DNA from: Alphaproteobacteria bacterium
GTDB taxonomy: Bacteria; Pseudomonadota; Alphaproteobacteria; Rs-D84
NCBI GenBank assembly: GCA_017642585.1
Contig: JAGCOR010000026.1
Span: 7,776 to 71,775 of the forward strand
Length of the DNA stretch: 64,000 nt
Direction of reading: 5' to 3'
Shown: piece by piece, positions 11,439 to 64,000 of the stretch
How the letters are laid out: every line of letters begins with the position of its first letter
Numbering within the stretch: the stretch's first letter is position 1
Made by a program: the position numbers and the translations under genes
The notes under the pieces: generated by a model
The model's database searches: none
What the model saw: the letters and a program-made list of their open reading frames with translations, nothing else
Told to the model about the DNA's origin: nothing

Positions 11439-11442
11439 AATT

Positions 11443-22497: not shown

Positions 22498-22512
22498 ATA
22501 ACTTTTATTGCT

Positions 22513-22588
22513 TGGTGGAGCTGATCAGACTCGAACTGACGACCCCTTGCATGCCATGCAAGTGCTCTACCAACTGAGCTACAACCCC
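22513..22588 (-). tRNA. tRNA-Ala (GGC)
   Basis: Manual fold: acceptor GGGGTTG/CAGCTCC with the G3-U70 Ala identity pair, anticodon stem CTTGC/GCAAG with loop ATGGCAT (GGC), T loop TTCGAGT, CCA encoded. Confidence 0.85.
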
Positions 22589-32481: not shown

Positions 32482-32498
32482 TTAATTTCCTTTTGTTT

Positions 32499-34896: not shown

Positions 34897-34964
34897 ATTT
34901 ATTTCTTGCCAAACTTATATTTTTTGACTATTATTTTGTCAACACATCTTCAAGGAGGTTTAAT

Positions 34965-35972: not shown

Positions 35973-35997
35973 CAATGTCAATTTGTAGGGGGGGCAT

Positions 35998-37285: not shown

Positions 37286-37769
37286 TTATTAAATTTGGTA
37301 ATGCCTGGTCCAGAACATTAAGCAAATTATTATACAGCCCCAATACAGAACCTCCTGATAATTTGTCTTCTATTAACCCCAGCAAATAATTTATTTGATA
37401 CAATACATTGTTGTGTGTGTTTGCCCATTGACTTAAATCTATATTTATACTTTGAATATCATGCAACGCAGCGATTAAAAAATTAAAATCAGAATTCAAA
37501 TCTTCTGGGTCTATCTTTGCAGTCGGTTGATAATCGATTACTCTGGATAATGATATTTGCCGGAAAATATCTATTTGCGTTCCGTTTGCTGGTGCAGTTG
37601 CAAATACCACCAAACCACCATTAAAATCATTATCAGGGTTCACATCATATTGCGAATCATCTAAAACAACATTGTCTATCGCGACTTTAATATCTGCATT
37701 TTGAAAAAAAGGGAAATTAAAAACAAATTCCGTATCATTGCCATTTCCCGTATATGATATTTTATACAT
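37221..37769 (-). CDS. tail fiber N-terminal (tail-attachment) domain protein, T7 gp17-N-like stub
   Basis: MYKISYTGNGNDTEFVFNFPFF resembles T7 gp17 N-terminus VLTYQLDGSNRDFNIPFEY (recalled); only 182 aa, no receptor-binding region. Confidence 0.55.
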   Translation of the reverse strand: MYKISYTGNGNDTEFVFNFPFFQNADIKVAIDNVVLDDSQYDVNPDNDFNGGLVVFATAPANGTQIDIFRQISLSRVIDYQPTAKIDPEDLNSDFNFLIAALHDIQSINIDLSQWANTHNNVLYQINYLLGLIEDKLSGGSVLGLYNNLLNVLDQALPNLINDYGSVTETADNEQSDDYGSL

Positions 37770-37778
37770 GAATGCCCC

Positions 37779-38126
37779 CTATCCTGCTATTTTATCTATC
37801 TGCGACAGCCACTTTTTCAATAAATTAGGTTTTGTTGTTTTTATCTTTTTTAAATTTTCTATGCTTGTTTTATTTTTTTCATCATATGGTTGTGCAGTTT
37901 CATCACGCAATCTTTTTAATACCGCGTTTTCAGACAAACCATCACCAGCATTGCCAGACGCTCCGTATTTTGCGCGTTGTCCCGCCAATACTTTTTTTAT
38001 TAAATTATTTTTCGCTGTTTCATTTTCAGCCATTTGTTCCAATATTTTTTGACGTTGGTTGCCTGCTTTCTTCTTAGATTCTTGATAATCCAGAATTTGC
38101 GTTACGTCAGATACCAATTGTCCCAT
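37779..38126 (-). CDS. hypothetical lysine-rich protein (phage module)
   Basis: 115 aa ORF between tail tubular B and the fiber stub. Confidence 0.35.
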   Translation of the reverse strand: MGQLVSDVTQILDYQESKKKAGNQRQKILEQMAENETAKNNLIKKVLAGQRAKYGASGNAGDGLSENAVLKRLRDETAQPYDEKNKTSIENLKKIKTTKPNLLKKWLSQIDKIAG

Positions 38127-38144
38127 AAAAAACTCCTTTTGTTT

Positions 38145-39857
38145 TTATATTGAATACCAACCCTCTGTAGTCACAGACAATATTGTCGCGCTTAATTGTT
38201 CACTGCTGGACAAAGTCCACAAAGGTTGAATTGTATCGGCCTGTATACCCAGCAAATTTAATGACAAATCCCCGCTGTAACCAAGGTTATCGTTTGAATA
38301 AACAACATTTGGTATTTCAATTCTGTAATCATTTGCAAATAATGTTTTTGTGTTTATCACACGCACAGATATTTTTCTGGTTCGTATTTTCTTTGGACAA
38401 TGTCCATTTACAACCATAGGCACAGCCGATATTTTATATGAAAAACCATATTGGGTTGCGTCTTTCAAACAAGATGCATCAAATTTTTCAAGATAATGAT
38501 TGCCTTTTCTTTTTACAATAACATAAGTTGAATCATCTAATACACAAACATATTTGAATTCGCCGTCTGTTTTATATGTTCCCCACGCAGAAATATCTGT
38601 ATTTGGATATTTATGTAATACGGCCATATATCCGCTTTGCATAACAACAAACAATTGATGTGTGTTTTGGTTATAAGAAACACTGACCGGATTTTGCATA
38701 AGATGTTTTGCATACAAACATAAATCTGTAGCGTTGTAATTTTCACCCAATGCATCTAAATCTAATTCACGAATATCTTTGCCTGATTCAGAAATGAAAA
38801 CTGTGCTACCTTCTATTTGCTGTGGAGGCAAATATCTTGTCGCAATACTGCCGACAGATGTATGTTGTTTAATATTGACATTTGATGGTGTTAACGGGGA
38901 ATTTGAAATCGACCATTCGCCCACAGATGTCAAAATCTGCAACGAATCACTGCTGACAATTGTACAAATTTGATGGTGTTGTGCAGATAATAAAGCTGCA
39001 TAAATTGCTTCATCATCTAAACCTGTGCCAGAATCAAAATTATGAAAATCAGAAACTTTGGACATCCATATACAATTCGGCAAAGCATGTGTTCCGCCAA
39101 AAACTAATCTGTTTTGATGGAAAGATACACATGATGGCCATCCGCGTCTGTTGTTAAACACAGATTCATACCAATCGTATATTGGACCTTGGGCTAATGT
39201 AAAATTACCATTTGTATAAACAGTAACAGCCGTAGCACTTTGAACGCTGGCAACAACCCATTGTCTGTTGTCCACATATAATCTTTCACCCACAGCATTT
39301 TCAGGCCAAAAATCTGCATTTGTTGTAAATGTAGCGTAATTGGTATCTATGTCGCTGCTGGACATTGTTATAGTGATATTTTTCGAATCTTCAAAACGCG
39401 TAAACGGTATATTTACACTGGCATCTGAATTGGAAGAAAAATTAAAATCAGTAAAACCAAAACCACTGGCTGTTTTTGTAAATATCACAGGTTTATAATC
39501 TGGATGAACAAAAAATATAGAATTAAATCTTTGTGCATATTGTAATTTTGCCAAATCAGCACGTTTCCACGGCGCAATCATTGTCGTTATTTTGGTATCA
39601 TTACAATATATATCCATAGAAATATTGTATATAACCAACAAATATTTTTCTGATTCTGTAATTGGAAACGGCACAATTATTGCATCTTGGTATGTATTAC
39701 CTATGCTTTTTAACCCACTGCGTCTGGTTAAACCGCCTGATTTTAATACATCTGTATTTTCCAACACAGATAACCCGTTTGCATTATTCAATGCGTAAAA
39801 TTCAGAAGACACTTCCCCACAAGCAAATGAATTTTGTGTTTTAATAAAATTACCCAT
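38145..39857 (-). CDS. tail tubular protein B (T7 gp12-like), shortened
   Basis: FHQNRLVFGG...SKVSDFHNF resembles the gp12 FFFRNRLGFLSG...AKYFNFY segment (recalled); sits downstream of a gp11-like gene; 570 aa. Confidence 0.55.
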   Translation of the reverse strand: MGNFIKTQNSFACGEVSSEFYALNNANGLSVLENTDVLKSGGLTRRSGLKSIGNTYQDAIIVPFPITESEKYLLVIYNISMDIYCNDTKITTMIAPWKRADLAKLQYAQRFNSIFFVHPDYKPVIFTKTASGFGFTDFNFSSNSDASVNIPFTRFEDSKNITITMSSSDIDTNYATFTTNADFWPENAVGERLYVDNRQWVVASVQSATAVTVYTNGNFTLAQGPIYDWYESVFNNRRGWPSCVSFHQNRLVFGGTHALPNCIWMSKVSDFHNFDSGTGLDDEAIYAALLSAQHHQICTIVSSDSLQILTSVGEWSISNSPLTPSNVNIKQHTSVGSIATRYLPPQQIEGSTVFISESGKDIRELDLDALGENYNATDLCLYAKHLMQNPVSVSYNQNTHQLFVVMQSGYMAVLHKYPNTDISAWGTYKTDGEFKYVCVLDDSTYVIVKRKGNHYLEKFDASCLKDATQYGFSYKISAVPMVVNGHCPKKIRTRKISVRVINTKTLFANDYRIEIPNVVYSNDNLGYSGDLSLNLLGIQADTIQPLWTLSSSEQLSATILSVTTEGWYSI

Positions 39858-39875
39858 GAAATCACCCCTGAATTA

Positions 39876-40394
39876 TTAAAATCTTGAATTTATCAAAGAA
39901 AAATTATCTATGTTTGATTGATTTAAAATCGTGCTGTCTATGAATTTTGCAGATTGATATTCTGATTCATACAAAATATTCATCATTTTAAAGATATTCA
40001 TATCTCCAATCAAAGGAACACAAAATTCCACAGCCAATTTAGATGCAACCAATGATGCAAAATAGCCCGGAAAATTTTCTGGTTCTGTTTTTACAATCGC
40101 AATAATTTCTATTTTTTCGGCTGCGGCAATTATCTTGTTTCCAACGATTTGACCAGGATGTTTAATTATGCGTAATACATTGGTGGGTATAATAAAATCA
40201 CCATTTGAATCTTTGGTTAATTCTATGTTTTGTAATGCAAAATGCCATGGAAATGTCGACAACAAAGTATCAACAACCGAATCAAATAAACTTCTGGCCA
40301 ATTGAGCAGGTGCAGAATCTTCACGCAAAGATTGAATTGGCTTTTCGCCTAACTTTAACAAAGCCATTGAACATAAATCTATTTTTGTAAACAT
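39876..40394 (-). CDS. tail tubular protein A (T7 gp11-like)
   Basis: IDLCSMALLKLGEKPIQSLRED..AQLARSLFDSVVDTLLSTFPWHF versus recalled T7 gp11 [41 protein letters not shown]; 172 aa. Confidence 0.6.
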   Translation of the reverse strand: MFTKIDLCSMALLKLGEKPIQSLREDSAPAQLARSLFDSVVDTLLSTFPWHFALQNIELTKDSNGDFIIPTNVLRIIKHPGQIVGNKIIAAAEKIEIIAIVKTEPENFPGYFASLVASKLAVEFCVPLIGDMNIFKMMNILYESEYQSAKFIDSTILNQSNIDNFSLINSRF

Positions 40395-40407
40395 ATTTTA
40401 TTCCTAT

Positions 40408-40440
40408 GTAAAAAGGGGCCGTATAAAACGGCCCGGTTAT
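40408..40440 (-). terminator. strong rho-independent terminator downstream of the capsid gene region (T-phi-like position)
   Basis: CCGGGCCGT TTTAT ACGGCCCC TTTTT on the minus strand. Confidence 0.5.
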
Positions 40441-40467
40441 AAAATAATTAACAATTTGATTTGTTTT

Positions 40468-40698
40468 TTAAGACAAAGCAGCAACTGTTATAGCATCAGC
40501 TGTAACACTTAATACTTTGATTGATGTTCCATTTGAACCATTAATTAAAATGATATCGCCTGTATTCATCAAAGATTTTACACTGGCAAAATATCCAGAT
40601 GCAGTTATTGTCGCCAATGTCGCATTTTCTTTATAATGCCACAATGTAAAACCATTTGCGTATGCAATCACAGACAAATTTTTATTTTGAAATGCCAT
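40468..40698 (-). CDS. hypothetical small protein downstream of capsid
   Basis: 76 aa ORF with no motif, tightly packed. Confidence 0.3.
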   Translation of the reverse strand: MAFQNKNLSVIAYANGFTLWHYKENATLATITASGYFASVKSLMNTGDIILINGSNGTSIKVLSVTADAITVAALS

Positions 40699-40734
40699 TT
40701 GATTTTCCTTTTGTTTTATTTAAGTTATGAATGT

Positions 40735-41562
40735 TTAGGCTGCATCATCATCACATTTAATACGAACGATACCTTCTGCATCAATCAACACAGCGCCTTG
40801 GGACATACTGTTGCTGATGAAATGCGCAGCACGTTCGCCATGCCATGTAATATCAGTTTTAACTTCTTGACCACAGGCATGACCAATGCTGGATGCATGA
40901 TAAATGAAACAATCACGATCATCTGTGTTTGCCAAAGGCAAAGAATTGCACAGAATCCAATTGATACCCAACCATCTTCTTGATTCACAACCATCAACCA
41001 AAGGTGTTGAACCACCGACATAATCAGCAGATACAAATTCATTCATACCCATCAATTCATTCCATTGATGAACACCAACGACTGCATATCTGCGACCGTC
41101 ATCTGGAACGTCATTTTCGTTTAATTTTTCAACAGCACTCATAATCAATGCTTTTGTTAAACCTGTTGAATAATCGCCAACATATTGGGTTGCATTGTTC
41201 ATCGCAGCGATGATTAATTCATCTGTTTTACGACCCAATGCATATGCACCGGCTGATGCAACAACACGACGTTCATCAACATTGGTTTTCAATTCATCCA
41301 AAGCATCAATCCAATCGCCTGCGTAATAATCTTGCAAAGTGCATTCCACAGGTGTGTGATTCAAATTCATCACTGGAACAATACCATGACGTGATTTAGT
41401 ACTGGCAATTCCTTTGCCAACTTTTTGGAAAGTTGTTGAAGTTCCAACAACGCCAGATTTACTGCGAATTGTGGAACGCAATTTTGTGCCCATTTGCTGA
41501 TAAGCCAAATGAACATCTGCTTCAAATTGTTTTATAAACACTTGATCTACAGATAAAGACAT
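40735..41562 (-). CDS. major capsid protein (T7 gp10-like)
   Basis: VFIKQFEADVHLAYQQMGTKLRSTIRSKSGVVGTSTTF versus recalled T7 gp10 LFLKVFGGEVLTAFARTSVTTSRHMVRSISSGKSAQF; start MSLSV at 41562 with an AAGGA Shine-Dalgarno (track ORF extends to 41655). Confidence 0.65.
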   Translation of the reverse strand: MSLSVDQVFIKQFEADVHLAYQQMGTKLRSTIRSKSGVVGTSTTFQKVGKGIASTKSRHGIVPVMNLNHTPVECTLQDYYAGDWIDALDELKTNVDERRVVASAGAYALGRKTDELIIAAMNNATQYVGDYSTGLTKALIMSAVEKLNENDVPDDGRRYAVVGVHQWNELMGMNEFVSADYVGGSTPLVDGCESRRWLGINWILCNSLPLANTDDRDCFIYHASSIGHACGQEVKTDITWHGERAAHFISNSMSQGAVLIDAEGIVRIKCDDDAA

Positions 41563-41793
41563 AAAAAATCCTTTTTGTTTTTCTTGTAAAAAATTACGCC
41601 AAAACGGCAACATATTTTGAAAAATGGTTATACGAAAAATCGCGCCATAAAACAAAATTCAAAAGTCAGGGTCCACAAAATGGATTATCCAATAAAAGAT
41701 TCAGTCAGACACAAAATCTGACTGAAAATTTTATCAAAAAACCCCAAAACACTTATGCTTTGGGGTTAAAAATGATACATAATTAATGTATTA

Positions 41794-42114
41794 TTATTTT
41801 TTCTTTGCAACTTTTTTTGCAGGTTTTTTTGCAGCAACTTTTTTTGCAGGAGCTTTTTTAGCAACTGGTTTTTTTGCTACAACTTTTTTTGCAGGAGCTT
41901 TTTTAGCAACTGGTTTTTTTGCAACAACTTTTTTTGCAGGTGCTTTTTTAGCAACTGGTTTTTTTGCTACAACTTTTTTTGCAGGTGCTTTTTTAGCAAC
42001 TGGTTTTTTAACTGCAACTTTTTTTGCAGGTGCTTTTTTTGCTGCTGGTTTTGCAGCTACTTTTTTAGCAGCTGGTTTTGCGCAAGCACATTTTTTCTTA
42101 GAACCAAAGAACAT
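41794..42114 (-). CDS. lysine/alanine-rich histone H1-like repeat protein
   Basis: 106 aa, about 45% Lys, with repeating KKAPAKKVVAKKPVA units; strong AAGGAGA Shine-Dalgarno 6 nt before the ATG. Confidence 0.6.
   Translation of the reverse strand: MFFGSKKKCACAKPAAKKVAAKPAAKKAPAKKVAVKKPVAKKAPAKKVVAKKPVAKKAPAKKVVAKKPVAKKAPAKKVVAKKPVAKKAPAKKVAAKKPAKKVAKKK
41812..42070. repeat. 45-bp tandem repeat, ~4.5 copies (coding; encodes the 15-aa KA repeat)
   Basis: Unit GCAGGAGCTTTTTTAGCAACTGGTTTTTTTGCTACAACTTTTTTT repeated at 41846, 41891, 41936 and 41981 with 1-2 substitutions per copy. Confidence 0.75.
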
Positions 42115-42218
42115 AATTCTCTCCTTTTAAGTTTTTGGATAGAACAAAATTATTTTGTTCATACTTTTATTTTATATGAATTAAATAAAATAGTAAAGAA
42201 TAAAAGTTAAAAATTATG

Positions 42219-42875
42219 TTATGAATATAATTTTTTAAATCCGTTTTCTATTTTTCTTACATACTCCGGATCTTGATCACGCCAATATTTTGGATTCTTC
42301 ATCATGTTGCGTAATTCATCATCAGTTAAATTTTCATCACCACTTTTGTTTGTAAAAACTTCTGGTTCCATTGATTGCATCATCTTGTATATGCCTTGAA
42401 TTCCCTGGGGTGTAGAGCATAGTTCATCAAACGCAGATGCAGGTAAAAACTTTTCACCAAATGCATTTATCTCTTTCAATGCATCATTCATTTTTTGTGT
42501 TGAACCAAAAAAATTTTTTAATTCATTTATTGCATTTGTTTCATTTTGCATTTCAAATAAATTTTTTATCGCAGGTTGTAAAAAATCTTCTGCAATTTGA
42601 TAAATTGTTTCAACTTGTTTTGATGTTAAACCAATTTCATGAAATTTTTCACGCACCGATTCGTCATCAAATAAACTGTTTGTTGGATATTCTGATGCGT
42701 TATCCGGTACACCAATTGCGCGATTAAATTTTTGTTTAGTTGAATCATCACTATCCGCAGATGGTACAGATATCATCGTTCCCATCTTTTTTTCTAATTC
42801 ACAATACGATTTAATCAACGCAGATGTATTTAATTCACCATTTTCATTTAGAAATTTTTCTGGAACCTGTTCCAT
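42219..42875 (-). CDS. capsid scaffolding protein (T7 gp9-like)
   Basis: Acidic; C-terminal ELRNMMKNPKYWRDQDPEYVRKIENG versus recalled T7 gp9 SEMIKAMSDPRYRTDANYRRQVEQKV; position upstream of capsid. Confidence 0.55.
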   Translation of the reverse strand: MEQVPEKFLNENGELNTSALIKSYCELEKKMGTMISVPSADSDDSTKQKFNRAIGVPDNASEYPTNSLFDDESVREKFHEIGLTSKQVETIYQIAEDFLQPAIKNLFEMQNETNAINELKNFFGSTQKMNDALKEINAFGEKFLPASAFDELCSTPQGIQGIYKMMQSMEPEVFTNKSGDENLTDDELRNMMKNPKYWRDQDPEYVRKIENGFKKLYS

Positions 42876-47295: not shown

Positions 47296-48114
47296 ATGAC
47301 AAAAGATACAGATAAAAAGATTGCTTTATTCGCCGGTGCATTGTCTCTGCCGTTTTTAACACGTGATGCGTTGCGTAAAAATGGGTGGGATGTGTATGTT
47401 GTTGGTATAAAGAATTTTTACGATCCAAAATTGAATCCAGATTTGGTTATTCGTATTGGTGGTGGCGGTCGTGCTGCCCGCGAATGTAAAAAACGTGGTA
47501 TTCACAAATTGACTTTTGTTGGGGCATTGGGACATTTGACCCCGTCAGACATAAGGCCTGATTTGTGGTCTATTTCTGTATTGTTAAGTGTATTAAAAAA
47601 TCAACGGGGGTATGATTCTATGGCTGTTGCATTTACCAAAGCATTGGAAAAACGCGGATATGAAATTGTCGCCGCGCAGGATTTGGCGCCAGAATTGACA
47701 TTTGAAAAACCGGGTATACAAACAAAAACAAAACCTGCAAAATCTGATATGAAAGACATAGAACGCGCAATCCAGGTATCACATACCATTGGGACGGAAG
47801 ATATTGGTGCATCTGTGGTTGTTGATAAACAAGTTATCGCTGTCGAAGCCGCCGAAGGAACCGCCCGCATGTTGGACAGGGTTGTAGAAATGCGTAAAAA
47901 CCGTAAAAAGATAGGTGGCGTTTTTGCAAAAATGACTAAACCAGGTCAAGATTTAAGAATTGATATTCCTGCGATTGGCGTTGATACGGTCAAAGCGGTT
48001 GTGGCTGCAAAATTACACGGAATCATAGTTAATGCAAAAACATGTTTTGTGATTGATAAACCTGCTGTGATTGCCGCCGCGAACAAGGCAAAAATATTTA
48101 TCCAGGCAATATAA
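47296..48114 (+). CDS. lpxI: UDP-2,3-diacylglucosamine hydrolase LpxI (DUF1009)
   Basis: 272 aa; pattern consistent with the alpha-proteobacterial LpxI family (recalled, not searched). Confidence 0.6.
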   Translation: MTKDTDKKIALFAGALSLPFLTRDALRKNGWDVYVVGIKNFYDPKLNPDLVIRIGGGGRAARECKKRGIHKLTFVGALGHLTPSDIRPDLWSISVLLSVLKNQRGYDSMAVAFTKALEKRGYEIVAAQDLAPELTFEKPGIQTKTKPAKSDMKDIERAIQVSHTIGTEDIGASVVVDKQVIAVEAAEGTARMLDRVVEMRKNRKKIGGVFAKMTKPGQDLRIDIPAIGVDTVKAVVAAKLHGIIVNAKTCFVIDKPAVIAAANKAKIFIQAI

Positions 48115-49101: not shown

Positions 49102-50097
49102 TTGATTCAAGCCACGATTTATGATAAAATAAAAATGATGTCGAATGTAGTATTGGAATCTTTATTAAAACCATTGGAAGAATTTTATTCGCCTTCGTTT
49201 GTCGAAGAAATCGCGATAAATCATGCGGGTGAAGTTTGGATGCGTCTTCATGGCGCCCGTGTTCCGTGGGTTGCATACAGTGCGGACAAACTATCTAAAC
49301 AATATTTGGTTGATTTAATTCATACCGTTGCAAATATTTATGAAAAACCATTTGATCCAATTCATGGCATACCTGTGGTTTATGCTACATTGCCCGGCAA
49401 TCACAGATTTTCGGCGATTGCGGGCCCAAATGTTCAATATGATGAAAATGATGTAACGGGCGGTGTCGCATTAAATATTCGTGGTGGAAACGCCGCAGAA
49501 ACCAGTTTTGAAAACTATCATCTGGAACGCGGTAAAAAATTATTAAAGGTTAAACCACGCGAATCGATTCGCCCTGATGACCCATATGACCGATTGATGT
49601 CCGCCATAAATGACGGCAGTCCTATTTTGATAAGTGGTGCAACTGCAACTGGTAAAACAACATTTTTGAATCATATGCTGACATTGATTGACCAAAACAG
49701 TCGTGTTATCACTGTCGAAGATGCTCGCGAAATTCGTGTTCCACAAAAAAATCGTGTTCATTTTGTATTGTCCAGAACTGAACAATCAAATGATTTTAAC
49801 TATGCCAGATTGCTTGATTTGGTTGTCCGTATGACACCTGACGTTGTCATCGGCGGGGAAATATCTACGGATAATGCATCTGTGCTATGGGAAATGTTGG
49901 GTACAGGACACGACCATTTTTATACTACAATTCACGCGGAATCTGCAGAATCTGCATACGCCGCATTTGCAGACAGAATTTTACACACTCAACCTGCATA
50001 TAACAGAACAGATTTAATCGCGGAAATGAAAAAGAAAATTCACGTTGTTCAATTATCGCGTGATGGTGCTCTGCGTGCTGTTACAGAGGTTGTTTAA
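49102..50097 (+). CDS. VirB11-family secretion ATPase (orphan)
   Basis: Walker A GATATGKTT; Walker B/Asp box VVIGGEISTDNA; His box GTGHDHFYTTIHA; ~330 aa. Confidence 0.7.
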   Translation: MIQATIYDKIKMMSNVVLESLLKPLEEFYSPSFVEEIAINHAGEVWMRLHGARVPWVAYSADKLSKQYLVDLIHTVANIYEKPFDPIHGIPVVYATLPGNHRFSAIAGPNVQYDENDVTGGVALNIRGGNAAETSFENYHLERGKKLLKVKPRESIRPDDPYDRLMSAINDGSPILISGATATGKTTFLNHMLTLIDQNSRVITVEDAREIRVPQKNRVHFVLSRTEQSNDFNYARLLDLVVRMTPDVVIGGEISTDNASVLWEMLGTGHDHFYTTIHAESAESAYAAFADRILHTQPAYNRTDLIAEMKKKIHVVQLSRDGALRAVTEVV

Positions 50098-52823: not shown

Positions 52824-53543
52824 ATGTGGAAGTTTTTATTTGAATTTTGCGATTTTGTATTTGCCATAATCCCTGTTAAAAAATGGCGAAACTATTTGCG
52901 TGAACGCGTTTTGTTTGATTACAGAAAAAAACTAAACGCCCTGTTACGTAAATACCCGAATTTAAGCAAAAACCACATGCGTTTGGCCAAAGGCGGTGGC
53001 AGTTTAGTTTTCATTTTTAATAACAAATACACTTTTAAAGTTCGCAAATACAAACATGAAACTACCAACTTTGACCGTTTTTATCGTGAAAAGCGCATCA
53101 CAGATGCCCTACGTGATTTTTGCTCTATCCCAATTCCAAACATAGAATTCATAGAATTGGATGGTTTTACTTTCTATAAATCTGATTTTATACCCGGCAA
53201 ATTATTGGTCAGCATACCAACGCACCGCATAAAAAAATATCAAAATCAAATCAGCAAACAATTGGCTGAATTTATATATAAAAAATCTTTTGCAAATCCA
53301 CCTGAATTAAAAGATCTCCGGAACGAAATCCAGGCTGATTTTGCATGGAACCATACCGACATGTGCAGTAATATTTTAATAGATCCAAAAACAATGGTTA
53401 TTACCGGCATAATTGATTGGGAATGGGCAAGATATACCCCATTGGACAAAGAATTTTACGGGCTGGTACGTGTTCGTAAAAAAATGCAAAAAATTGGGCT
53501 GGACCAATCGACAAAAGAATACTATTTGAAATTGGTAAAATAA
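52824..53543 (+). CDS. protein-kinase-like fold phosphotransferase (APH/choline-kinase-like)
   Basis: Brenner motif HTDMCSNIL (HxDxxxxN) and IIDWEWA (DxE) Mg-binding motif; 239 aa. Confidence 0.45.
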   Translation: MWKFLFEFCDFVFAIIPVKKWRNYLRERVLFDYRKKLNALLRKYPNLSKNHMRLAKGGGSLVFIFNNKYTFKVRKYKHETTNFDRFYREKRITDALRDFCSIPIPNIEFIELDGFTFYKSDFIPGKLLVSIPTHRIKKYQNQISKQLAEFIYKKSFANPPELKDLRNEIQADFAWNHTDMCSNILIDPKTMVITGIIDWEWARYTPLDKEFYGLVRVRKKMQKIGLDQSTKEYYLKLVK

Positions 53544-56168: not shown

Positions 56169-57068
56169 ATGAAAACAAAAATCATATATATTTCGGGCAG
56201 TGAAATTTTTGATATGGCGGATATACGCAGTGCTTTTGAAGAGGTTCGTAGCGCATTAAACCTGGACAAAGATACGGTTTTGTTTGGTGTACCAGTTGAT
56301 GCAGATGATGCAGGACTGGAAGCAACAAAGGACAATGAATTGACATCGGCGATAGCTGAAACCATAGATATAACCGCTGTTCCAGAATCAATCGAACCCA
56401 CGGAAATTCAAGAACCAGAACCTGTTGTTGAAAAAACAATAAAAAAACGCACTTCATCTCGCAAAAAAACAACTGAAGAATCAACAGAAACAAAAGTTGA
56501 AACCGAAACCTCAGAAACGACTGATGAAGCCGTAGAAAAGATTGTTCCTATTTTATCCATACTGTCGGTCAATAACGAAGATTCTGTTGAACCTGCGGAA
56601 CAAGAAACAACTGAAAATATCGAAATCATAGAAGATGTTGTCCAAGAAACAACCGTTACAGAAGAAGAAACCCCAGAAGAATCAGCTGAAGAACAAACAA
56701 ATGAAGAATCTGGATTGGATGAATTATTGTCTTCTATGACACCTTTGGAAGATATTGTTCCAGAACCAGAAGAACACACAGAAGAAGAAATTATAATCGA
56801 TACCGACAATACCAAGGATGAAGAAAATATTGATGAAACCTTGAAACAGTTGGCAACTGAATTTGTTAAAAAACAAGATTCTATGCCATCAACAAAATCA
56901 TCTGGTAACGGCAGATTGGGTAAATTGCGTAAATATTTACCATTTAAACCCCAAACAAAAAAAGAAGATCCAGGATTGGATAATTTGTTTGATTGGGCGG
57001 GTTCCGCTGCAAATGACGAAGATTTTTCTGTTCCCGGATTTTTCACTAATATTGCATCCAAGAAATAA
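56169..57068 (+). CDS. hypothetical highly acidic (E/T-rich) protein
   Basis: 299 aa; central region 35% Glu/Asp; no TM or signal. Confidence 0.4.
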   Translation: MKTKIIYISGSEIFDMADIRSAFEEVRSALNLDKDTVLFGVPVDADDAGLEATKDNELTSAIAETIDITAVPESIEPTEIQEPEPVVEKTIKKRTSSRKKTTEESTETKVETETSETTDEAVEKIVPILSILSVNNEDSVEPAEQETTENIEIIEDVVQETTVTEEETPEESAEEQTNEESGLDELLSSMTPLEDIVPEPEEHTEEEIIIDTDNTKDEENIDETLKQLATEFVKKQDSMPSTKSSGNGRLGKLRKYLPFKPQTKKEDPGLDNLFDWAGSAANDEDFSVPGFFTNIASKK

Positions 57069-57070
57069 AT

Positions 57071-57562
57071 ATGAACCAAATAGATGTTATTAATTTATTA
57101 AAAAATTCCGGGCTGAAAGTATTCGGCATGGACGATAAATACATCTATTTCGAAGATCCAACTTGTATTTTTCCTGCATTTGATTCTGTTTTCAATTTCG
57201 CATGGATTATTCTGTTAACATTTACCGCTATATTATTATTTGGATGGGGCGTGTTATACATAAAAAACGGTGTAAAATTAGATTCTTTGTTTAAAAACAT
57301 TCGTTCTTTGGTTTTAATTTTAACCGTATTCATTTTAGTTAAACCAATTGTAAATGTTATATATGGTGACAATTTGTTTGCAAGATTATGTGAAAAGAAA
57401 CAGGTGGAAATATCGACAGTCCAAGAATTAATGGATCAAAGAAATAAAAAATTTTCTAATTCAGATAATGCATTGATGTATGAAACTTTCAACGTAACAG
57501 ATACAGGCGCATTGATATCTCCTGAAACAGAAGCAGAAATTCGCGAATCTTTGGGAGAATAA
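57071..57562 (+). CDS. hypothetical membrane protein
   Basis: Two TM helices; ATG 3 nt after the upstream stop. Confidence 0.4.
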   Translation: MNQIDVINLLKNSGLKVFGMDDKYIYFEDPTCIFPAFDSVFNFAWIILLTFTAILLFGWGVLYIKNGVKLDSLFKNIRSLVLILTVFILVKPIVNVIYGDNLFARLCEKKQVEISTVQELMDQRNKKFSNSDNALMYETFNVTDTGALISPETEAEIRESLGE

Positions 57563-60018: not shown

Positions 60019-60486
60019 TTAATCAATCTTGCTTTTTTCTATCTCTGCGATAACACGCGTACTTATTTTTTCAGCCAACACCTGAATCGTATTCATCACA
60101 GCATTATTATAAGATGCATTTGATGCGACCAAATATCTTACAAAAGTATAACTTTCTGCCGCCTTTTCGGTTCCTTTGGCTATTTCTTTATCGCCTTGTT
60201 TCAAAACATAGGACGCACTTAAATTAACTTCTTGCCATGTGGCATCGCCTGTTATCTCGAAAGCCTTGTACTGGGTCACAGGATCTTTTAAATTTACCGT
60301 CAATGTATATTTTGCACCCTGTTCATGTATACCACCAAAATTAGTATTCAATGCATTACGCAATTCTATACCCGTAATACCACTGATTGGGGCAACATAA
60401 ACGTCTGTATCAGTGCCGGAAAAGATCGGTTTGAAGCTGCAAGCTGACACAATTAAAGACATCATTATTAAAAATATTTTTTTCAT
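60019..60486 (-). CDS. lptE: LPS-assembly lipoprotein LptE
   Basis: Lipobox VSAC; 155 aa; position immediately upstream of holA as in most proteobacteria. Confidence 0.65.
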   Translation of the reverse strand: MKKIFLIMMSLIVSACSFKPIFSGTDTDVYVAPISGITGIELRNALNTNFGGIHEQGAKYTLTVNLKDPVTQYKAFEITGDATWQEVNLSASYVLKQGDKEIAKGTEKAAESYTFVRYLVASNASYNNAVMNTIQVLAEKISTRVIAEIEKSKID

Positions 60487-60547
60487 GACATTTCCTGTTG
60501 AACTACATTTTTATATTAGCTATAGTTTTTACGAATCGCAAGGGGGA

Positions 60548-63500
60548 ATGATGAATATTTTTTTATTATTTTTATCTATGTTTTTTATGATTGGATATTA
60601 TATGATTTCCAGTCCCTCACAAAACCTGGGTTATGACGAAGTTCAATATGAACACCAAAACTCTGAAATGCGGTCTTTGGTTGACTGCGTTGTGGCTAAA
60701 CAAAACGCGTTTATCAATAACGCCCCCTTTAATGACGAATGCGTAAAACGCTATAAAATCAACAGCACAGAAGTTTGTACTGATGAAAAATTTGAATTGT
60801 CCAATTGTTCGGTGGACCCCTACTACGATTTCATCATAACAACCAGCTATAAAATAGATCATTCTCAATACAAAGACGCATTTAGAATTATTGATAAAAC
60901 CCGCCAAGATTTTGGAACTTTGGGTTTATTCATAGATCCAAATGTTATTGCGGCTAATTCTATTGGTAAAAAACTGATTCCAGAATCTGTTATAAAAGGT
61001 GCAGAATTAGAAAACGGTCAAATTGCATATATTATCCAAAATTCTGTCCAAGCATTTGACCCCAGCCAGCCAGATCCAGGTGACGATGACGATTGTCGTT
61101 TCACAATATTTGGTAAGGTCTGTGACGATGTTGAAATAGAGGTTTGCACAGGTAACGAAGTATGGGATGAAGATCAGAAAAAATGTGTAGATCAAACAGG
61201 TTTATGTGAAGCTGGTAAAATCTTATTAATAGATGAAAGTGATAATTCTTATTATTGTGTAGATCCTACAAGCAAAATATGTACAGGTAACACAACATTA
61301 CAATATAATCACAAATTAGAGGCATGGGAATGTATCGAAGTTGAAAACTCTGATGATACAGAATGTGATTTGTCTCAATTTTCTTTAAGATTACACTCAA
61401 CTTTGGATTCTGCTGCCCCAACAGCCCGTATCAGAACCATCAATTGTAATAATTGTGAAAAACGCGTGTTGGATGAATCTACTTGCACCATTTATTGCAG
61501 CCCAGACGCCTCAAAACTTAGTTTGGGCGAATGTTATAATGACAGAAATGTGCCTTTGGCAGATTGCAAAGGCGAAAAACGTGGGGTTTATTTTGGATTT
61601 GCCCCTGGCCGTACCCAATATGCAGTTAATACCAGTACCGCGGACGAATCTTCCCAAAACAGTGATATTATTTTAAATGTAGAAAAATTCTTGGACAAAG
61701 ACCATTTACAAGACCGTTTATTCCACTGCTTTGAATGTGCAAATGGTATGAGTGATCGTTTATCTTTTTCTCCATTTTCTGCAATGTGCAAAACCGAAAA
61801 CGACGAAGATGACGATGATATAGTTTGTGCTGATGACGAAATGATCGCTATAGATCAGAAAACTGGAAAATTTTATTGTGAAAAAATCCCAGAAGAACCA
61901 GACGAACCAGATGAACCTGGTGAACCAGACGAACCTGATGACCCACATTCTTATGGCATATCATTAAGCGCATACAGCGGTATAACCACATACCCAACCG
62001 CAGCAACATTTTATGTTACAGAAAACACTTCTAATGGGGAATTGACTGTACAAACCAGCAATCCAAAGATTGCTACTGCTTCCATCAGTGGCAGTATTGT
62101 TACAGTTAAACCTGTGTCCAAAGGTAAGGTTGCTGTCTATATCAGAAGTGCCGCCAGAGGCAGTTACAATGTTGCTGTTGCTACATATAGTTTGCAAATA
62201 AACGGGGCAAATATTGTTGTTAATGCGTCAGATTTAGTATTGGAATATAACGGAAGCGAACAAAGTTGTGCTAATGTACGTGTAAAAAACCCAGCTACAG
62301 GTGCCAAAGTTGGTTATAGTTTAGTAGAAGGAGGCCCATACAGCAGTGCTCCTGTACTGACAGACGCCGCATCTGTTACTGTCTTTTACCAAGTTTCAGC
62401 CGAAAATTATACAGATTTAACAGGTCGTTATCAATGCACATTGACAGGTGGTCAAGAAGGTGGTGTGGTATTAAGTGCTTCCAGCGGAACAATAACATAT
62501 CCAACAACAACTACATCATTCACTGCATCTTGTTTAAGTGGTGGTACATTCTCTATAAAAAATTCGAATCCAGATGTTGCATCTGCCAATGTTGACAAAG
62601 ACACTGTTACTTTGACATATAACAAATCAGGAACTGCTTACATAACAGTGGATTGTCCCGAATATAATGGTTATTTATCTGCCAATGCAACATACACATT
62701 GACCGTCAAACGAGGTGTAATCGAAGCAACAGCCCAGAACAAAACATTAACTTATTCTGGTTCAGCGCAAAGTTGTGCAAATGTGTCCGTCAAATCACCA
62801 GTTGGCGCCAATGTAACATACAGCACTTCACAAAATGGTACATATTCAAACCAAGCACCTACATTGACAAACACAGGCGACATTAATGTATATTATAAAA
62901 TTACCGCCGATAACTACGAAGACAAGACCGGCAGTTATAAATGCATCATGTCAAAAGGTGGAAACAGCACAATAACTTTAAGCGAATACAGCGGGACAAT
63001 CACATATCCTGAAACCACCACTTCATTCACTGCAACATGTAACAGTGGTGGTGATATGACTGTTAAAAGTGATGATAAATCTATCGCAACAGCCACTATC
63101 CACAATGGTACTGTAACCGTAACATATGAATCTGCTGGTGAAACAACAATTCGTGTTATGTGTGATAAAACTAACAATTATGATGAATCAGAGGCAACTT
63201 ATAACATCGTTACCCAAAAAGGTACATTAAAACCAGAAGTAGACGATAAATACTTAACATATTCTGGTTCCGCACAAAGTTGTGCTAATACATTTAATAT
63301 TAAAGACGTATCATCATTCACTGTCAAATATGCTTCCTCATCAAACGGAACATATTCTTCGAGTGCACCTACCCTGACAGATACAGGTTCTATAAGTGTA
63401 TTCTATAAAATAATTGCGGACGATTACGAAGAATTCTTTGGCAACTATAAATGTACTATGGGCACCGGCGGCAATTCTTTGGAATTAAATTCATACAGTG

Positions 63501-64000
63501 GCAACACCGAATTCCCAAATGACAAAACCATTGAAGTAACAAAAAATATCAGCAATGGTACATTAAGTGCAAAAAGCAATAAAACAGGTGTCGCTACCGC
63601 AGTTGTCAAAGGTAGCAAGGTTATTATAACCCCTGTGGCAACAGGTTCTGCAGTAATTACTGTTACCAGTGCCGCCACATCTAATTATGCTGCCGCATCT
63701 GTAGAATATCAATTGACAGTAACCAAAGGCACAATCAGTGCTTCTATATCCAGTCCATCGAAACCATTTGATACAAAACCTTTAACATGTAATGGTGTAT
63801 CAAGTGTCAAACCAGATGGTGCTACTGTAAAATATAAAACGTCACAAAATGGCAGTTATTCATCAACTGTTCCAACTGTTACAAATGTTTCAGACAGCAA
63901 GACTATTTATTATCAAATTACAGCGGATAATTATGAAACAAAAGAAGGTGTGTTCTCTTGCTCTATAACCAGTGCTGGTGAATCTGTTATCGGCTTCAGT
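60548..64000 (+). CDS. giant secreted/surface protein with an N-terminal signal anchor, a Cys-rich region, an acidic EPDEPDEPGEPDEPDDP linker and at least four ~170-aa tandem Ig-like (Big_2-type) repeat units; runs off the window end
   Basis: Continuous open frame of 1151 codons with no stop (manually translated; absent from the ORF track only because there is no stop); GGGGGA Shine-Dalgarno before the ATG; repeat signature TYSGSAQSCANVSVK...GTYS..APTLT.TG...VYYKI.ADNYE...G.Y.C alternating with TITYP.TTTSFTA.C.SGG...V....IATA...G.VTVTYE. Confidence 0.6.
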   Translation, partial: MMNIFLLFLSMFFMIGYYMISSPSQNLGYDEVQYEHQNSEMRSLVDCVVAKQNAFINNAPFNDECVKRYKINSTEVCTDEKFELSNCSVDPYYDFIITTSYKIDHSQYKDAFRIIDKTRQDFGTLGLFIDPNVIAANSIGKKLIPESVIKGAELENGQIAYIIQNSVQAFDPSQPDPGDDDDCRFTIFGKVCDDVEIEVCTGNEVWDEDQKKCVDQTGLCEAGKILLIDESDNSYYCVDPTSKICTGNTTLQYNHKLEAWECIEVENSDDTECDLSQFSLRLHSTLDSAAPTARIRTINCNNCEKRVLDESTCTIYCSPDASKLSLGECYNDRNVPLADCKGEKRGVYFGFAPGRTQYAVNTSTADESSQNSDIILNVEKFLDKDHLQDRLFHCFECANGMSDRLSFSPFSAMCKTENDEDDDDIVCADDEMIAIDQKTGKFYCEKIPEEPDEPDEPGEPDEPDDPHSYGISLSAYSGITTYPTAATFYVTENTSNGELTVQTSNPKIATASISGSIVTVKPVSKGKVAVYIRSAARGSYNVAVATYSLQINGANIVVNASDLVLEYNGSEQSCANVRVKNPATGAKVGYSLVEGGPYSSAPVLTDAASVTVFYQVSAENYTDLTGRYQCTLTGGQEGGVVLSASSGTITYPTTTTSFTASCLSGGTFSIKNSNPDVASANVDKDTVTLTYNKSGTAYITVDCPEYNGYLSANATYTLTVKRGVIEATAQNKTLTYSGSAQSCANVSVKSPVGANVTYSTSQNGTYSNQAPTLTNTGDINVYYKITADNYEDKTGSYKCIMSKGGNSTITLSEYSGTITYPETTTSFTATCNSGGDMTVKSDDKSIATATIHNGTVTVTYESAGETTIRVMCDKTNNYDESEATYNIVTQKGTLKPEVDDKYLTYSGSAQSCANTFNIKDVSSFTVKYASSSNGTYSSSAPTLTDTGSISVFYKIIADDYEEFFGNYKCTMGTGGNSLELNSYSGNTEFPNDKTIEVTKNISNGTLSAKSNKTGVATAVVKGSKVIITPVATGSAVITVTSAATSNYAAASVEYQLTVTKGTISASISSPSKPFDTKPLTCNGVSSVKPDGATVKYKTSQNGSYSSTVPTVTNVSDSKTIYYQITADNYETKEGVFSCSITSAGESVIGFS

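What the first reader, a model, noticed from the sequence alone, without database searches (positions are those of the whole stretch)
60548..64000. More than 1,150-codon open frame missing from the ORF track: giant Ig-like-repeat surface protein running off the window
From the ATG at 60548 the frame stays open to the window end. It encodes a signal anchor, a Cys-rich ~350-aa head with CxxC pairs, an acidic EPDEPD linker, then at least four diverged ~510-bp tandem units, each containing two Big_2-like beta-sandwich signatures. This is the design of an adhesin or invasin, probably much longer than the part seen. The repeats are diverged at DNA level (not assembly-collapsed copies), suggesting an old, maintained array.
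Basis: seen in the sequence. Interest (0 to 1): 0.55.

Follow-up and report, generated by a model that had tools for sequence, protein, structure and literature searches.

The report
Giant variable-length Ig-repeat fibre protein
The open frame is real: it is the first 30% of a 3,848-residue protein from an uncultured ruminant-gut alphaproteobacterium, in which a stalk of 39 antibody-like domains, whose number differs between strains, separates two cysteine-rich end pieces of unknown function. This is an ordinary kind of bacterial surface fibre, with unusual ends and no recognisable way through the outer membrane.

Summary
The frame from 60548 has no stop to the window end (chance about 3e-35). 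I rebuilt the whole gene from a metagenome contig that is 100% identical over the part the window holds. The protein is 3,848 aa and has five parts:
- an uncharged N-terminal hydrophobic helix;
- an orphan 24-Cys head;
- an acidic EPDEPD linker;
- (A-B)x19 plus one B, which makes 39 Ig-like domains;
- a 72-aa, 6-Cys tail.

A is a diverged Big_2/intimin-type Ig domain. B is a distant MBG-type Ig domain, not a second Big_2. A one-unit AlphaFold model has pLDDT 95 and matches tandem Ig pairs from S-layer and adhesin proteins.

The A-B module is common: 24,107 proteins match the unit profile. The head and tail have no relatives outside this species group.

The same locus, between lptE-holA and a lysozyme gene, carries 19.5, 9.5 or 0 units in related strains. 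The four window units are old and have orthologues. The extra units lie further along the gene and are recent internal duplications.

No RTX, autotransporter, intimin-barrel, T9SS or pilin signature is present. With 94 cysteines, Sec export is far more likely than type I secretion.

Best reading: a variable-length, disulfide-stabilised surface fibre, adhesin-like and periscope-like. Its anchoring and its route across the outer membrane are unknown. It is a new variant of a known kind, of moderate interest.

The parts
60498..60526 (+). Promoter-like site TTGAAC-17 nt-TATAGT. It is a weak consensus match (9 of 12), and the sequence is kept in strain L026.
   Evidence: The number of such sites in the region is no higher than in shuffled sequence, so this is only consistent with a promoter and does not prove one.
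60540..60547 (+). Shine-Dalgarno sequence AAGGGGGA, just upstream of the tandem ATG ATG.
   Evidence: It is conserved in L026.
60548..60553 (+). Two adjacent start codons, at 60548 and 60551. The second is the better candidate: it has the better spacing to the Shine-Dalgarno sequence, it is the only ATG left in L036, and the gene call on L001 uses it.
60548..60613 (+). N-terminal uncharged hydrophobic helix, MMNIFLLFLSMFFMIGYYMISS. It is either a signal anchor or an atypical signal peptide. It has no Lys/Arg, no lipobox Cys and no prepilin G-F-x-x-x-E motif.
   Evidence: it is the only strongly hydrophobic segment in the first 3,312 aa, apart from one borderline 19-residue window inside a repeat unit that does not look like a transmembrane helix; compared with L026 and L036, codons 1-25 show 3-4 synonymous and 0-1 nonsynonymous changes, while codons 26-50 show 3 synonymous and 4-5 nonsynonymous.
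60614..61888 (+). Orphan acidic head with 24 Cys (aa 23-447), ending in ...KTGKFYCEKIP. It contains two CxxC motifs and several C-x-x-G...C hairpin-like motifs.
   Evidence: Cys map. No family or solved-structure match. The only homologue is the orthologue P0220, at about 82% identity. dN/dS is 0.21 and all Cys are conserved. The AlphaFold model is unusable, with pLDDT 35.
61889..61954 (+). Acidic, proline-rich linker EEPDEPDEPGEPDEPDDPHSY, encoded by a 9/18-bp microrepeat.
   Evidence: 11 of 22 residues are Asp or Glu, and none is basic.
61955..62461 (+). Unit 1: A domain 61955-62209, B domain 62210-62461.
   Evidence: The orthologous unit in L036 is 82% identical.
62462..62968 (+). Unit 2: A domain 62462-62716, B domain 62717-62968. 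This is the unit that was modelled.
   Evidence: pLDDT 95.2; two all-beta domains; matches to tandem Ig-like pairs. The L036 orthologue is 78% identical.
62969..63475 (+). Unit 3: A domain 62969-63223, B domain 63224-63475.
   Evidence: This unit gives the best Pfam Big_2 score of any window unit: 19.7 bits, E 8e-4, below the 22.8 cut-off. The L036 orthologue is 88% identical.
63476..63985 (+). Unit 4: A domain 63476-63730, B domain 63731-63985.
   Evidence: The L036 orthologue is 82% identical.
63986..64000 (+). First 5 codons of unit 5. Beyond the window the gene continues for another 2,697 codons: units 5-19, a final B domain, and a 72-aa tail with 6 Cys.
   Evidence: (full gene assembled from L001 and L028, which come from one contig that is 100% identical to the window over 3,450 nt).
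60019..60486 (-). Context only: the divergently transcribed neighbour, a 155-aa lipoprotein (MKKIFLIMMSLIVSAC...) placed upstream of holA as lptE is in proteobacteria. Together with BamA and LpxI it marks the organism as having an outer membrane.
   Evidence: The lptE identity is an inference from position and the lipobox, because no family model matched.

Best explanation
This is the 5' third of a native chromosomal gene of an uncultured ruminant-gut alphaproteobacterium. The gene encodes a fibre protein of about 420 kDa that sits outside the cytoplasm.

**Shown.**
- The architecture is: N-terminal hydrophobic helix, 24-Cys head, acidic Pro-rich linker, (Big_2-like A / MBG-like B)x19 plus one B (39 Ig-like beta-sandwich domains), and a 72-aa tail with 6 Cys.
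- The number of A-B units differs between related strains at the same locus: 19.5, 9.5 or 0.
- The strain with 9.5 units keeps the orthologues of units 1-5, 12, 15, 18, 19 and 20. The window strain's extra units are internal duplications.
- The head is under purifying selection but evolves fast.

**Inferred.**
- The protein is exported by Sec through its N-terminal helix and is oxidised in the periplasm. The Cys pairs inside domains, and the Cys-rich ends, would form disulfides.
- The Ig array forms a semi-rigid stalk roughly 130-150 nm long, assuming 3.3-4 nm per Ig domain as in other bacterial Ig-repeat fibres. The stalk holds one Cys-rich end piece far from the other.
- Recombination between similar units changes the stalk length, as in periscope-type surface proteins.
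- One Cys-rich end is then the ligand-binding or interaction module, and the other sits next to the anchor.

The most likely role is adhesion or spacing at the cell surface in the gut. The ligand, which end is anchored, and the route across the outer membrane are not known.
For: **A real, native, intact gene.**
- No stop in 1,151 codons.
- The full 3,848-aa frame is present in two independent assemblies that are 99.97% identical.
- GC and GC3 match the housekeeping genes.
- Head dN/dS is 0.21.

**Ig-like stalk.**
- The unit model has pLDDT 95.2.
- The A half matches the intimin Ig domains of the PDB at E 2.7e-6.
- Relatives' A domains pass the Pfam Big_2 threshold.
- 17 of 38 B domains from relatives hit MBG_3.

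**Location outside the cytoplasm.**
- The only clear hydrophobic segment is the N-terminal helix.
- The protein has 94 Cys in even-numbered sets. The Cys pair in B is invariant, and the Cys pair in A is present or absent as a pair.
- The organism has an outer membrane: BamA, LpxI and an lptE-like lipoprotein.

**Length variation.**
-.
- Units beyond the window are up to 96% identical in DNA.

**Class context.**
- 24,107 proteins carry the module, in signal-peptide, lipoprotein-like and prepilin-anchored giant proteins.
- The definitions of fibrillar adhesins and periscope proteins come from PMC8286594 and PMC8201768.
Against: - No adhesive domain is recognisable, and the head and tail match nothing.
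- No known outer-membrane anchor or secretion signal is present. A 130-150 nm fibre tethered only to the inner membrane would still have to cross the outer membrane, and a disulfide-rich passenger fits type V secretion poorly.
- The N-terminus has no positive charge, which is atypical for a Sec signal.
- Most units are far below the 80% identity used to define periscope repeats.
- All length variants come from short-read metagenome assemblies, which break or may mis-join inside such arrays.
- There is no expression or localisation data.
Confidence: 0.6

Rival explanations
1. It is a type I-secreted giant RTX-type adhesin of the LapA/SiiE kind. Such a protein is exported in one step from the cytoplasm through a C-terminal signal and is held in TolC by an N-terminal plug.
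For: It is a giant Ig-repeat protein in a proteobacterium. An ABC exporter of the MsbA type lies in the window at 11473-13263.
Against: - The complete C-terminus is a 72-aa Cys-rich tail with no RTX nonapeptides, and no HemolysinCabind hit is on record.
- The N-terminus is a hydrophobic helix, not a retention module.
- The 94 Cys arranged in disulfide-like pairs fit a periplasmic folding step, which type I substrates skip.
- No type I secretion genes flank the gene on either side.
Confidence: 0.03
2. It is an intimin/invasin-type inverse autotransporter, or a classical autotransporter. An outer-membrane beta-barrel in the same polypeptide would export the Ig array.
For: The A domains are related to the intimin Ig domains. 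A faint Ig_Eae hit is on record.
Against: - No IAT_beta, LysM or Autotransporter family hit appears anywhere in the 3,848 aa.
- The head is acidic with 24 Cys, unlike barrel domains.
- The C-terminus is a small Cys-rich tail.
- Many disulfide-forming Cys pairs in the passenger are unfavourable for type V export (established knowledge).
Confidence: 0.05
3. It is displayed like a pilin. The N-terminal helix would act like the alpha-1 helix of a type IV (pseudo)pilin, so that the fibre rides on or is pushed out by a pilus or type II secretion machine, as seems likely for relatives with true prepilin N-termini.
For: - At least 14 of the 150 best relatives, and L007/L020, start with G-F/I-T-L-I-E/A prepilin motifs followed by the same (AB)n arrays.
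- The window helix is about 21 residues long with Gly at 15-16 and Pro at 22-23, and it is unusually conserved.
Against: - There is no leader peptide, no Gly(-1)/Phe(+1) and no Glu5.
- No pilus or type II secretion genes are in the window.
- The only T2SSE-family ATPase is VirB11-like.
- The helix-breaker spacing may be coincidence.
Confidence: 0.07
4. It is not exposed on the surface. It is an inner-membrane-anchored envelope protein, acting as a spacer or scaffold, that stays in the periplasm.
For: The only anchor-like element is the N-terminal helix, and no outer-membrane export feature is seen.
Against: - 39 Ig domains would extend 130-150 nm, several times the width of a periplasm.
- Strain-level length variation from 0 to 19.5 units and fast evolution of the head are typical of exposed proteins under diversifying pressure.
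- Relatives of the module are overwhelmingly secreted or surface-type proteins.
Confidence: 0.1
5. It is an assembly artefact or a decaying pseudogene and not a functional gene.
For: - Contigs habitually break inside the array.
- L005 has a frameshift.
- L026 has two in-frame stops.
Against: - The window is identical to two contigs over 3,450 nt.
- The whole 11.5-kb frame is intact in two samples and in a 9.5-unit version in a third lineage.
- There is purifying selection, and Cys pairs are conserved across all units.
Confidence: 0.02

Closest known systems
Fibrillar adhesins, as surveyed by Monzon et al. 2021 (PMC8286594); examples are intimin, SiiE and the Leptospira Lig proteins
   Same: It is a long single polypeptide with a stalk of tandem Ig-like domains, including a Big_2-type domain. 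It has non-repeat modules at its ends and is host-associated. That survey found no recognisable anchor in about half of its cases.
   Different: - No known adhesive domain.
- No known anchor (LPXTG, YadA, autotransporter, LapG/RTX or T9SS).
- Cys-rich orphan modules at both ends.
- The stalk alternates two different Ig families.
- The host has an outer membrane, and no export route is apparent.
Periscope proteins (Whelan et al. 2021, PMC8201768); examples are SasG, Rib, Sgo_0707 and CdrA
   Same: The stalk changes length between closely related strains through gain and loss of whole repeat units (19.5, 9.5 or 0). Some units are near-identical in DNA (96%), which would allow recombination within the gene. 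End modules would be projected to different distances.
   Different: - Most units are only 47-60% identical in DNA, far below the 80% or more used to find periscope proteins.
- The proximal units are old and conserved one-to-one between lineages.
- There is no C-terminal wall anchor.
- Variation is seen between lineages 8-9% apart in DNA, not yet within a strain.
Intimin/invasin Ig domains and Pfam Big_2 (PF02368)
   Same: The A half aligns with intimin domain D2 at profile level (E 2.7e-6). A domains of relatives pass the Big_2 threshold.
   Different: The window's own A domains fall below Pfam's cut-off, and there is no inverse-autotransporter barrel or C-type-lectin tip. The similarity is at domain level only.
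MBG-type Ig-like domains (Pfam MBG PF17883 and MBG_3 PF18887)
   Same: The B half shares the ...Y-D/N/S-G...P-T-x-T-x-x-G-x-Y-x-V-Y-Y...N-Y...G signature. 17 of 38 B domains from relatives hit MBG_3 and 9 hit MBG.
   Different: All hits are below or near threshold, and the window's own B domains do not hit at all. The alphaproteobacterial B domains add an invariant Cys pair.
Giant (AB)n proteins with prepilin-type N-termini in Bacilli and Clostridia MAGs (P0071, P0077, L020)
   Same: They have the same alternating A-B array, 37-42% identical over hundreds of residues, and a single N-terminal hydrophobic helix as the only membrane element.
   Different: They carry a true G-F-T-L-I-E prepilin motif (Pfam N_methyl, TIGR02532), which the window protein lacks. 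They have no Cys-rich head or tail, and the organisms named in the records are Bacilli or Clostridia.

Membership tests
Fibrillar adhesin (Monzon et al. 2021) | A stalk of multiple tandemly repeated folded domains | tested here: met
   There are 39 Ig-like domains, (AB)x19 plus one B. The unit model has pLDDT 95 and Foldseek matches to tandem Ig pairs.
Fibrillar adhesin (Monzon et al. 2021) | At least one known adhesive domain | tested here: not met
   The head and tail give no Pfam, NCBIfam or PDB match. The head model is unusable.
Fibrillar adhesin (Monzon et al. 2021) | Attachment to the cell surface through a known anchor | tested here: not met
   No LPXTG, autotransporter, YadA, RTX/LapG, T9SS C-terminal domain, LysM or SLH is found. 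The only candidate is an N-terminal hydrophobic helix. Real surface exposure cannot be tested here.
Periscope proteins (Whelan et al. 2021) | Variation in repeat number between strains | tested here: met
   The orthologous locus carries 19.5 units (window strain and L032), 9.5 units (L036) or 0 units (L026), and L003 has a one-unit gap. All of these are short-read assemblies.
Periscope proteins (Whelan et al. 2021) | Long tandem repeats (over 50 aa) with at least 80% identity | tested here: inconclusive
   Units 13 and 14 are 98% identical in protein and 96% in DNA, and units 7 and 8 are 80% identical in protein. The four window units are only 30-49% identical in protein.
Periscope proteins (Whelan et al. 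2021) | An N-terminal functional domain projected from a C-terminal wall anchor | tested here: not met
   The C-terminus is a 72-aa Cys-rich tail with no anchor motif.
Pfam Big_2 (PF02368) | A score above Pfam's gathering threshold of 22.8 bits | tested here: not met
   The 1,151-aa protein gives no hit. The best single unit scores 19.7 bits. Homology at superfamily level is supported by the PDB intimin match at E 2.7e-6 and by relatives that pass the threshold.
Pfam MBG / MBG_3 | A score above the gathering threshold on the B half | tested here: not met
   The window's B halves give no MBG hit. In the set of 38 B domains, 17 hit MBG_3 (best E 5e-5) and 9 hit MBG. The relationship is distant.
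Inverse autotransporter (intimin/invasin) | An N-terminal outer-membrane beta-barrel (IAT_beta), with or without LysM | tested here: not met
   No such hit is found. The head is acidic with 24 Cys.
Classical autotransporter / two-partner secretion | A C-terminal beta-barrel, or an N-terminal TPS domain | tested here: not met
   The complete sequence was inspected. No Pfam hit is on record for the full product.
Type I-secreted RTX adhesin (LapA/SiiE type) | C-terminal RTX repeats and secretion signal, no Sec signal, and adjacent or dedicated type I secretion genes | tested here: not met
   
Type IV (pseudo)pilin-like proteins | A prepilin leader with G(-1), F/M(+1) and E(+5) (Pfam N_methyl, TIGR02532) | tested here: not met
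   The motif is absent from MMNIFLLFLSMFF..., and no N_methyl hit is found. It is present in the relatives P0002 and P0077.

The most novel reading that the evidence does not exclude
This outer-membrane-bearing alphaproteobacterium may display a disulfide-rich Ig fibre of about 420 kDa by a route or anchor that has not been described. The candidate anchor is an uncleaved, uncharged, strongly conserved N-terminal helix, possibly working like a leaderless pilin helix, as the prepilin-headed relatives suggest. The fibre would also have to cross the outer membrane without any type I, II, V or IX secretion signature. The orphan Cys-rich head and tail would then be a new pair of binding or docking modules, and the variable array would tune the distance between them.
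Probability: 0.12. Interest if true: 0.75.

Novelty: new variant of a known kind. Interest (0 to 1): 0.42.

Why it matters
Giant repeat proteins are usually broken or lost in metagenome-assembled genomes. In the deposited MAG this gene seems to be split over two contigs, so the surface biology of uncultured gut Alphaproteobacteria is largely unseen.

This case gives three things:
- a complete 39-domain architecture;
- a natural series of stalk lengths (0, 9.5 and 19.5 units) at one locus;
- two conserved Cys-rich end modules that no database recognises.

It also shows that an alternating Big_2-like/MBG-like two-domain unit is a very common building block (more than 24,000 proteins across gut phyla) that current domain libraries largely miss in diverged copies.

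If the anchoring and export route turns out to be new, that would bear on how bacteria with an outer membrane put very large folded fibres on their surface.

Tried and rejected
1. **Word-indexed homology searches.** They gave only 2 and 5 hits, which wrongly suggested that the repeat was rare. The exhaustive profile search found 24,107.
2. **Genome-collection scan with the N-terminal 1,151 aa.** It found nothing. The scan with distal units found only paralogue-like relatives. L021 (SIG48) is not an orthologue: its neighbourhood differs and its Cys-rich modules are unrelated to the head.
3. **Metagenome scan for the C-terminus.** It found only distant relatives. I finally reached the C-terminus through the short allele L026: its downstream lysozyme led, through that protein's cluster, to L028.
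5. **Head structure.** The first job failed. The second gave pLDDT 35 and was not used for fold search.
7. **Faint Pfam entries on record.** The PapD-like and DUF3017 hits are noise inside the repeats.
8. **The nearby T2SSE-family ATPase.** I considered it as a type II secretion or pilus partner, but it is VirB11-like.
9. **Visual resemblance between the head and relatives' Cys-rich regions.** The head's C-x-x-G...C motifs looked like the Cys-rich C-termini of P0177, P0185 and P0211, but the similarity was not significant.
10. **My first hand reading of an in-frame stop at 60524-60526.** It was wrong. The frame is open back to 60398, with an ATG at 60485.
11. **'Array inserted into an ancestral small protein'.** I considered this reading, but L026 groups with the array-bearing L036 in its tail and 3' flank (96.7% against 92.8%), so a deletion in L026 is more likely.

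Full report
**1. The observation**

Translating 60548-64000 gives 1,151 codons with no stop. From the window's base composition (36.9% G+C; 0.067 stops expected per codon) the chance of that is 3e-35. The other five frames carry 49-104 stops.

The ORF list did not show the frame because it leaves out ORFs that run off the end of the source.

It runs back to a stop at 60398-60400, and the first in-frame ATG is at 60485, overlapping the start codon of the divergent gene. My first hand reading of a stop at 60524 was wrong.

The start at 60548 or 60551 is still favoured, for four reasons:
- a Shine-Dalgarno AAGGGGGA sits at 60540-60547;
- a promoter-like TTGAAC-17-TATAGT sits at 60498-60526, although the region has no more such sites than shuffled sequence;
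- the gene call on an identical contig starts at MNIF;
- strain L036 has AAG ATG, so only the second ATG survives there.

**2. What the window part contains**
- aa 1-21: an uncharged hydrophobic helix.
- To about aa 447: an acidic head with 24 Cys, including two CxxC motifs.
- A 22-aa linker, EEPDEPDEPGEPDEPDDPHSY, encoded by the only tandem repeat that TRF sees (61889-61945).
- From 61955: units of 169-170 aa.

The four window units are 30-49% identical in protein and 47-57% in DNA.

**3. Source organism and context**

Exact-sequence look-ups place the neighbouring proteins in an NCBI MAG named 'Alphaproteobacteria bacterium' (MBO70536xx-MBO70537xx, J6W27_ locus tags). They also occur in ENA, Logan and JGI contigs. 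Several ENA records carry the prefix XIEF21, which from my own knowledge, not a tool result, I take to be a ruminant-gut data set.

The organism has an outer membrane: BamA at 25761-28043, LpxI at 47296-48114, and a lipoprotein next to holA in the position of lptE.

The gene's G+C and GC3 match the housekeeping genes, so it is native.

**4. The whole gene**

The adjacent 155-aa gene led to contig L001 (scaffold_680, 33,994 bp). This contig is 100% identical to the window over 3,450 nt, and its gene call for this locus is 3,848 aa.

The 3' end could not be reached from the window side. I reached it indirectly in four steps:
- a head-only search found P0220;
- its contig L026 showed a lysozyme gene downstream;
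- the cluster of that lysozyme contains the copy that lies on scaffold_680;
- looking that copy up returned L028, which holds the 3' end.

L001 and L028 overlap exactly and give 11,547 nt, which is 3,848 aa. HMM scans give the architecture ABAB...AB-B, that is 19 A and 20 B domains, followed by a 72-aa tail with 6 Cys, '...KDNSSTIGCAEPTADCCLENGG...AYCEQEIVVK'. The total is 94 Cys and about 423 kDa.

**5. What the units are**

*Sequence searches.*
- Pfam finds nothing in the 1,151 aa, even at E up to 1.
- On single units, Big_2 reaches at best 19.7 bits against a cut-off of 22.8.
- A domains of relatives pass the Big_2 threshold.
- For the B half, 17 of 38 domains collected from relatives hit MBG_3 and 9 hit MBG. 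There is also a weak match to the PKD domain of collagenase in the PDB. The window's own B copies hit nothing.

So each unit is two Ig-like sandwiches from two different families, not two Big_2 domains.

*Cysteines.* The B half has an invariant Cys pair. The A half has a Cys pair that is either present or absent as a pair. This is the pattern expected of disulfides within a domain.

**6. How common the module is**

The word-indexed searches suggested that the repeat was rare. The exhaustive HMMER search refuted that: 24,107 proteins match at E up to 1e-3 and 1,785 at E up to 1e-30.

Among the best 150, arrays are A-only (39), B-only (45), mixed (45) or alternating (AB)n (21).

Their N-termini fall into three groups:
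- ordinary signal peptides or lipoprotein-like signals;
- true prepilin motifs, in at least 14;
- an alphaproteobacterial type, '...AAGY-x-C...YTSCNAGYY'.

The nearest relatives are only 37-44% identical. The genome scan names MAGs of Clostridia, Bacilli, Lachnospiraceae and one other alphaproteobacterium (SIG48, L021).

L021 is not an orthologue. Its neighbourhood is different, and its ephrin-receptor-like Cys modules are unrelated to the head.

**7. The head and the tail**

The head matches no Pfam, NCBIfam or PDB entry and none of the 152 relatives tested (the 150 best plus P0001 and P0002). Its single-sequence model is unusable, with pLDDT 35.

The only homologue in 5.8 billion proteins is the orthologue P0220, at about 82% identity. 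All Cys are conserved.

Head dN/dS against L026 is 0.21, compared with 0.023 for holA. The head's dN is 18 times higher than that of holA.

Within the first 25 codons, which encode the helix, there are 3-4 synonymous and 0-1 nonsynonymous changes. The next 25 codons have 3 synonymous and 4-5 nonsynonymous changes. This hints at constraint on the helix, but the numbers are small.

**8. Length polymorphism at one locus**

The flanks are the same in all strains: lptE-holA-map-radC on one side, and lysozyme plus an MFS transporter on the other.

| Allele | Source | Array | Relation to the window strain |
|---|---|---|---|
| Window strain | scaffold_680 (L001 + L028) | 19.5 units | identical over 3,450 nt |
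| L032 | 100-kb contig | 19.5 units | 99.97% identical over 3,321 aa |
| L036 | 108-kb contig | (AB)x9 plus B | head 82.5% identical |
| L026 | 5.9-kb contig | none | head about 82% identical |

- **L036.** It has the same head, linker and tail. Its ten units match window-strain units 1-5, 12, 15, 18, 19 and 20 one-to-one at 78-92%, the same level as the head.
- **The extra units.** The ten extra units of the window strain (6-11, 13-14, 16-17) are the ones most similar to each other, with 72-96% DNA identity. They are therefore internal duplications.
- **L026.** It goes straight from '...FYCEKIP' to 'NDSSTTGCAEPTADCC...YYCEQAIVVK', followed by a terminator hairpin. Two in-frame stops lie just before the junction.
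- **Direction of the change in L026.** Its tail and 3' flank are closer to L036 (96.7%) than to the window strain (92.8%). The array-less allele is therefore more likely a derived deletion, possibly now decaying, than the ancestral form.
- **Other variation.** L003 lacks about one unit relative to the window strain.
- **Caveat.** All of these are short-read assemblies. Most other contigs end inside the array. In the NCBI MAG the two flanks have distant accession numbers, so the gene is evidently split there.

**9. Mechanism**

*Shown:* the architecture, the folds of the units, the Cys pattern, the length variation, purifying selection, and the absence of known secretion or anchor signatures.

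*Inferred:*
- Export is by Sec through the N-terminal helix.
- Disulfides form in the periplasm. This argues against one-step type I secretion and fits type V secretion poorly.
- The stalk is about 130-150 nm long, from 39 domains at 3.3-4 nm each (a figure taken from general knowledge of bacterial Ig-repeat fibres).
- The stalk separates the two Cys-rich modules, and its length is reset by recombination between similar units.

This is how fibrillar adhesins (PMC8286594) and periscope proteins (PMC8201768) work. Membership of either class is incomplete, however: there is no known adhesive domain, no known anchor, and most repeats are below the identity used to define periscope proteins.

Which end is distal, what the protein binds, and how it passes the outer membrane remain open.

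No secretion genes flank the gene. The one T2SSE-family ATPase in the window is VirB11-like.

**10. Verdict**

It is wrong or unsupported on 'two Big_2 per unit', on type I or autotransporter export, and on 'invasin'.

The finding is a new variant of a known kind. It is a well-resolved example from an uncultured lineage, with orphan end modules and an unexplained export problem. It is of moderate interest overall, and would be of higher interest if the anchoring or export route proves to be new.

Noticed in passing
window 31258-42875: A block of podovirus (T7-like) structural genes lies on the minus strand: portal at 31258-32481, capsid at 40735-41655 and scaffold at 42219-42875. The T7-type large terminase is split over two overlapping ORFs (36647-37285 and 37221-37769). 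A DnaB-like helicase (33346-34896) and a double-HTH regulator (34965-35972) sit inside the block on the plus strand. The capsid is 60% identical to a human-faecal phage fragment (MT838907) and 40% to Pelagibacter phage EXVC031P. This is possibly a decaying prophage. tRNA-His and tRNA-Ala lie at 22420-22588.
   Followed up: partly
window 49102-50097: A lone VirB11-like (type IV secretion or conjugation) ATPase of 331 aa has no other recognisable type IV secretion genes next to it. Its neighbours are unannotated small ORFs and priA. In strain L015 the corresponding region carries an EcoRI-type methylase and a GmrSD/HNH gene instead, so this looks like a variable island.
   Followed up: no
P0071, P0077, P0104, P0129, P0143 and others; L007/L020 (Bacilli MAG Tb.RUG.4) 9185-12262: Many relatives are giant (AB)n Ig-array proteins that begin with a true prepilin cleavage/methylation motif (G-F/I-T-L-I-E; TIGR02532 and ComG-like hits). 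This suggests a class of very large 'pilin-headed' fibre proteins in gut Firmicutes. I did not find a family model that describes them.
   Followed up: partly
L021 7445-13309 (Alphaproteobacteria MAG SIG48); P0078, P0099, P0139, P0215: A second alphaproteobacterial family of giant A/B-domain proteins has three shared features: a signal peptide ending '...AAGY-x-C', ephrin-receptor-like CxxCxxGYY modules, and a conserved C-terminal tail of about 70 aa ('CGR-LH-G...LRS-K-T-PSL...YGN...TY..D') of unknown role, perhaps an anchor or sorting signal. The window protein has none of these.
   Followed up: partly
L026 3330-3365 (orthologous short allele); L005 about nt 3315 of the gene: The array-less allele has two in-frame stops, each a single G-to-T difference from the long alleles (TAA for GAA and TGA for GGA), just upstream of the deletion junction. 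Contig L005 has a frameshift that splits the gene at about codon 1138. These are either real decay or assembly and sequencing errors.
   Followed up: partly
window 60484-60487 and the lptE N-terminus in L015-L017, L026 and L036: The lptE-like gene and the giant gene have start codons that overlap in a CATG palindrome, if the upstream ATG at 60485 is used. The lptE-like gene is called as 155 aa in some strains and as 147-148 aa in others, so the shared 61-bp control region varies between strains.
   Followed up: no
method (searches compared): For this low-complexity, Thr/Ser-rich repeat, the word-indexed protein search returned 2-5 hits where an exhaustive HMMER search returned 24,107. 'No homologues' from the indexed search would have been badly misleading. 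The window's own species also never appeared among the hits for the repeat region.
   Followed up: yes
window 56169-57562 and 52824-53543: Three conserved ORFs of 299, 163 and 239 aa lie between radC, zapA, gap and miaA. They have no family match, or only weak APH-like similarity.
   Followed up: no
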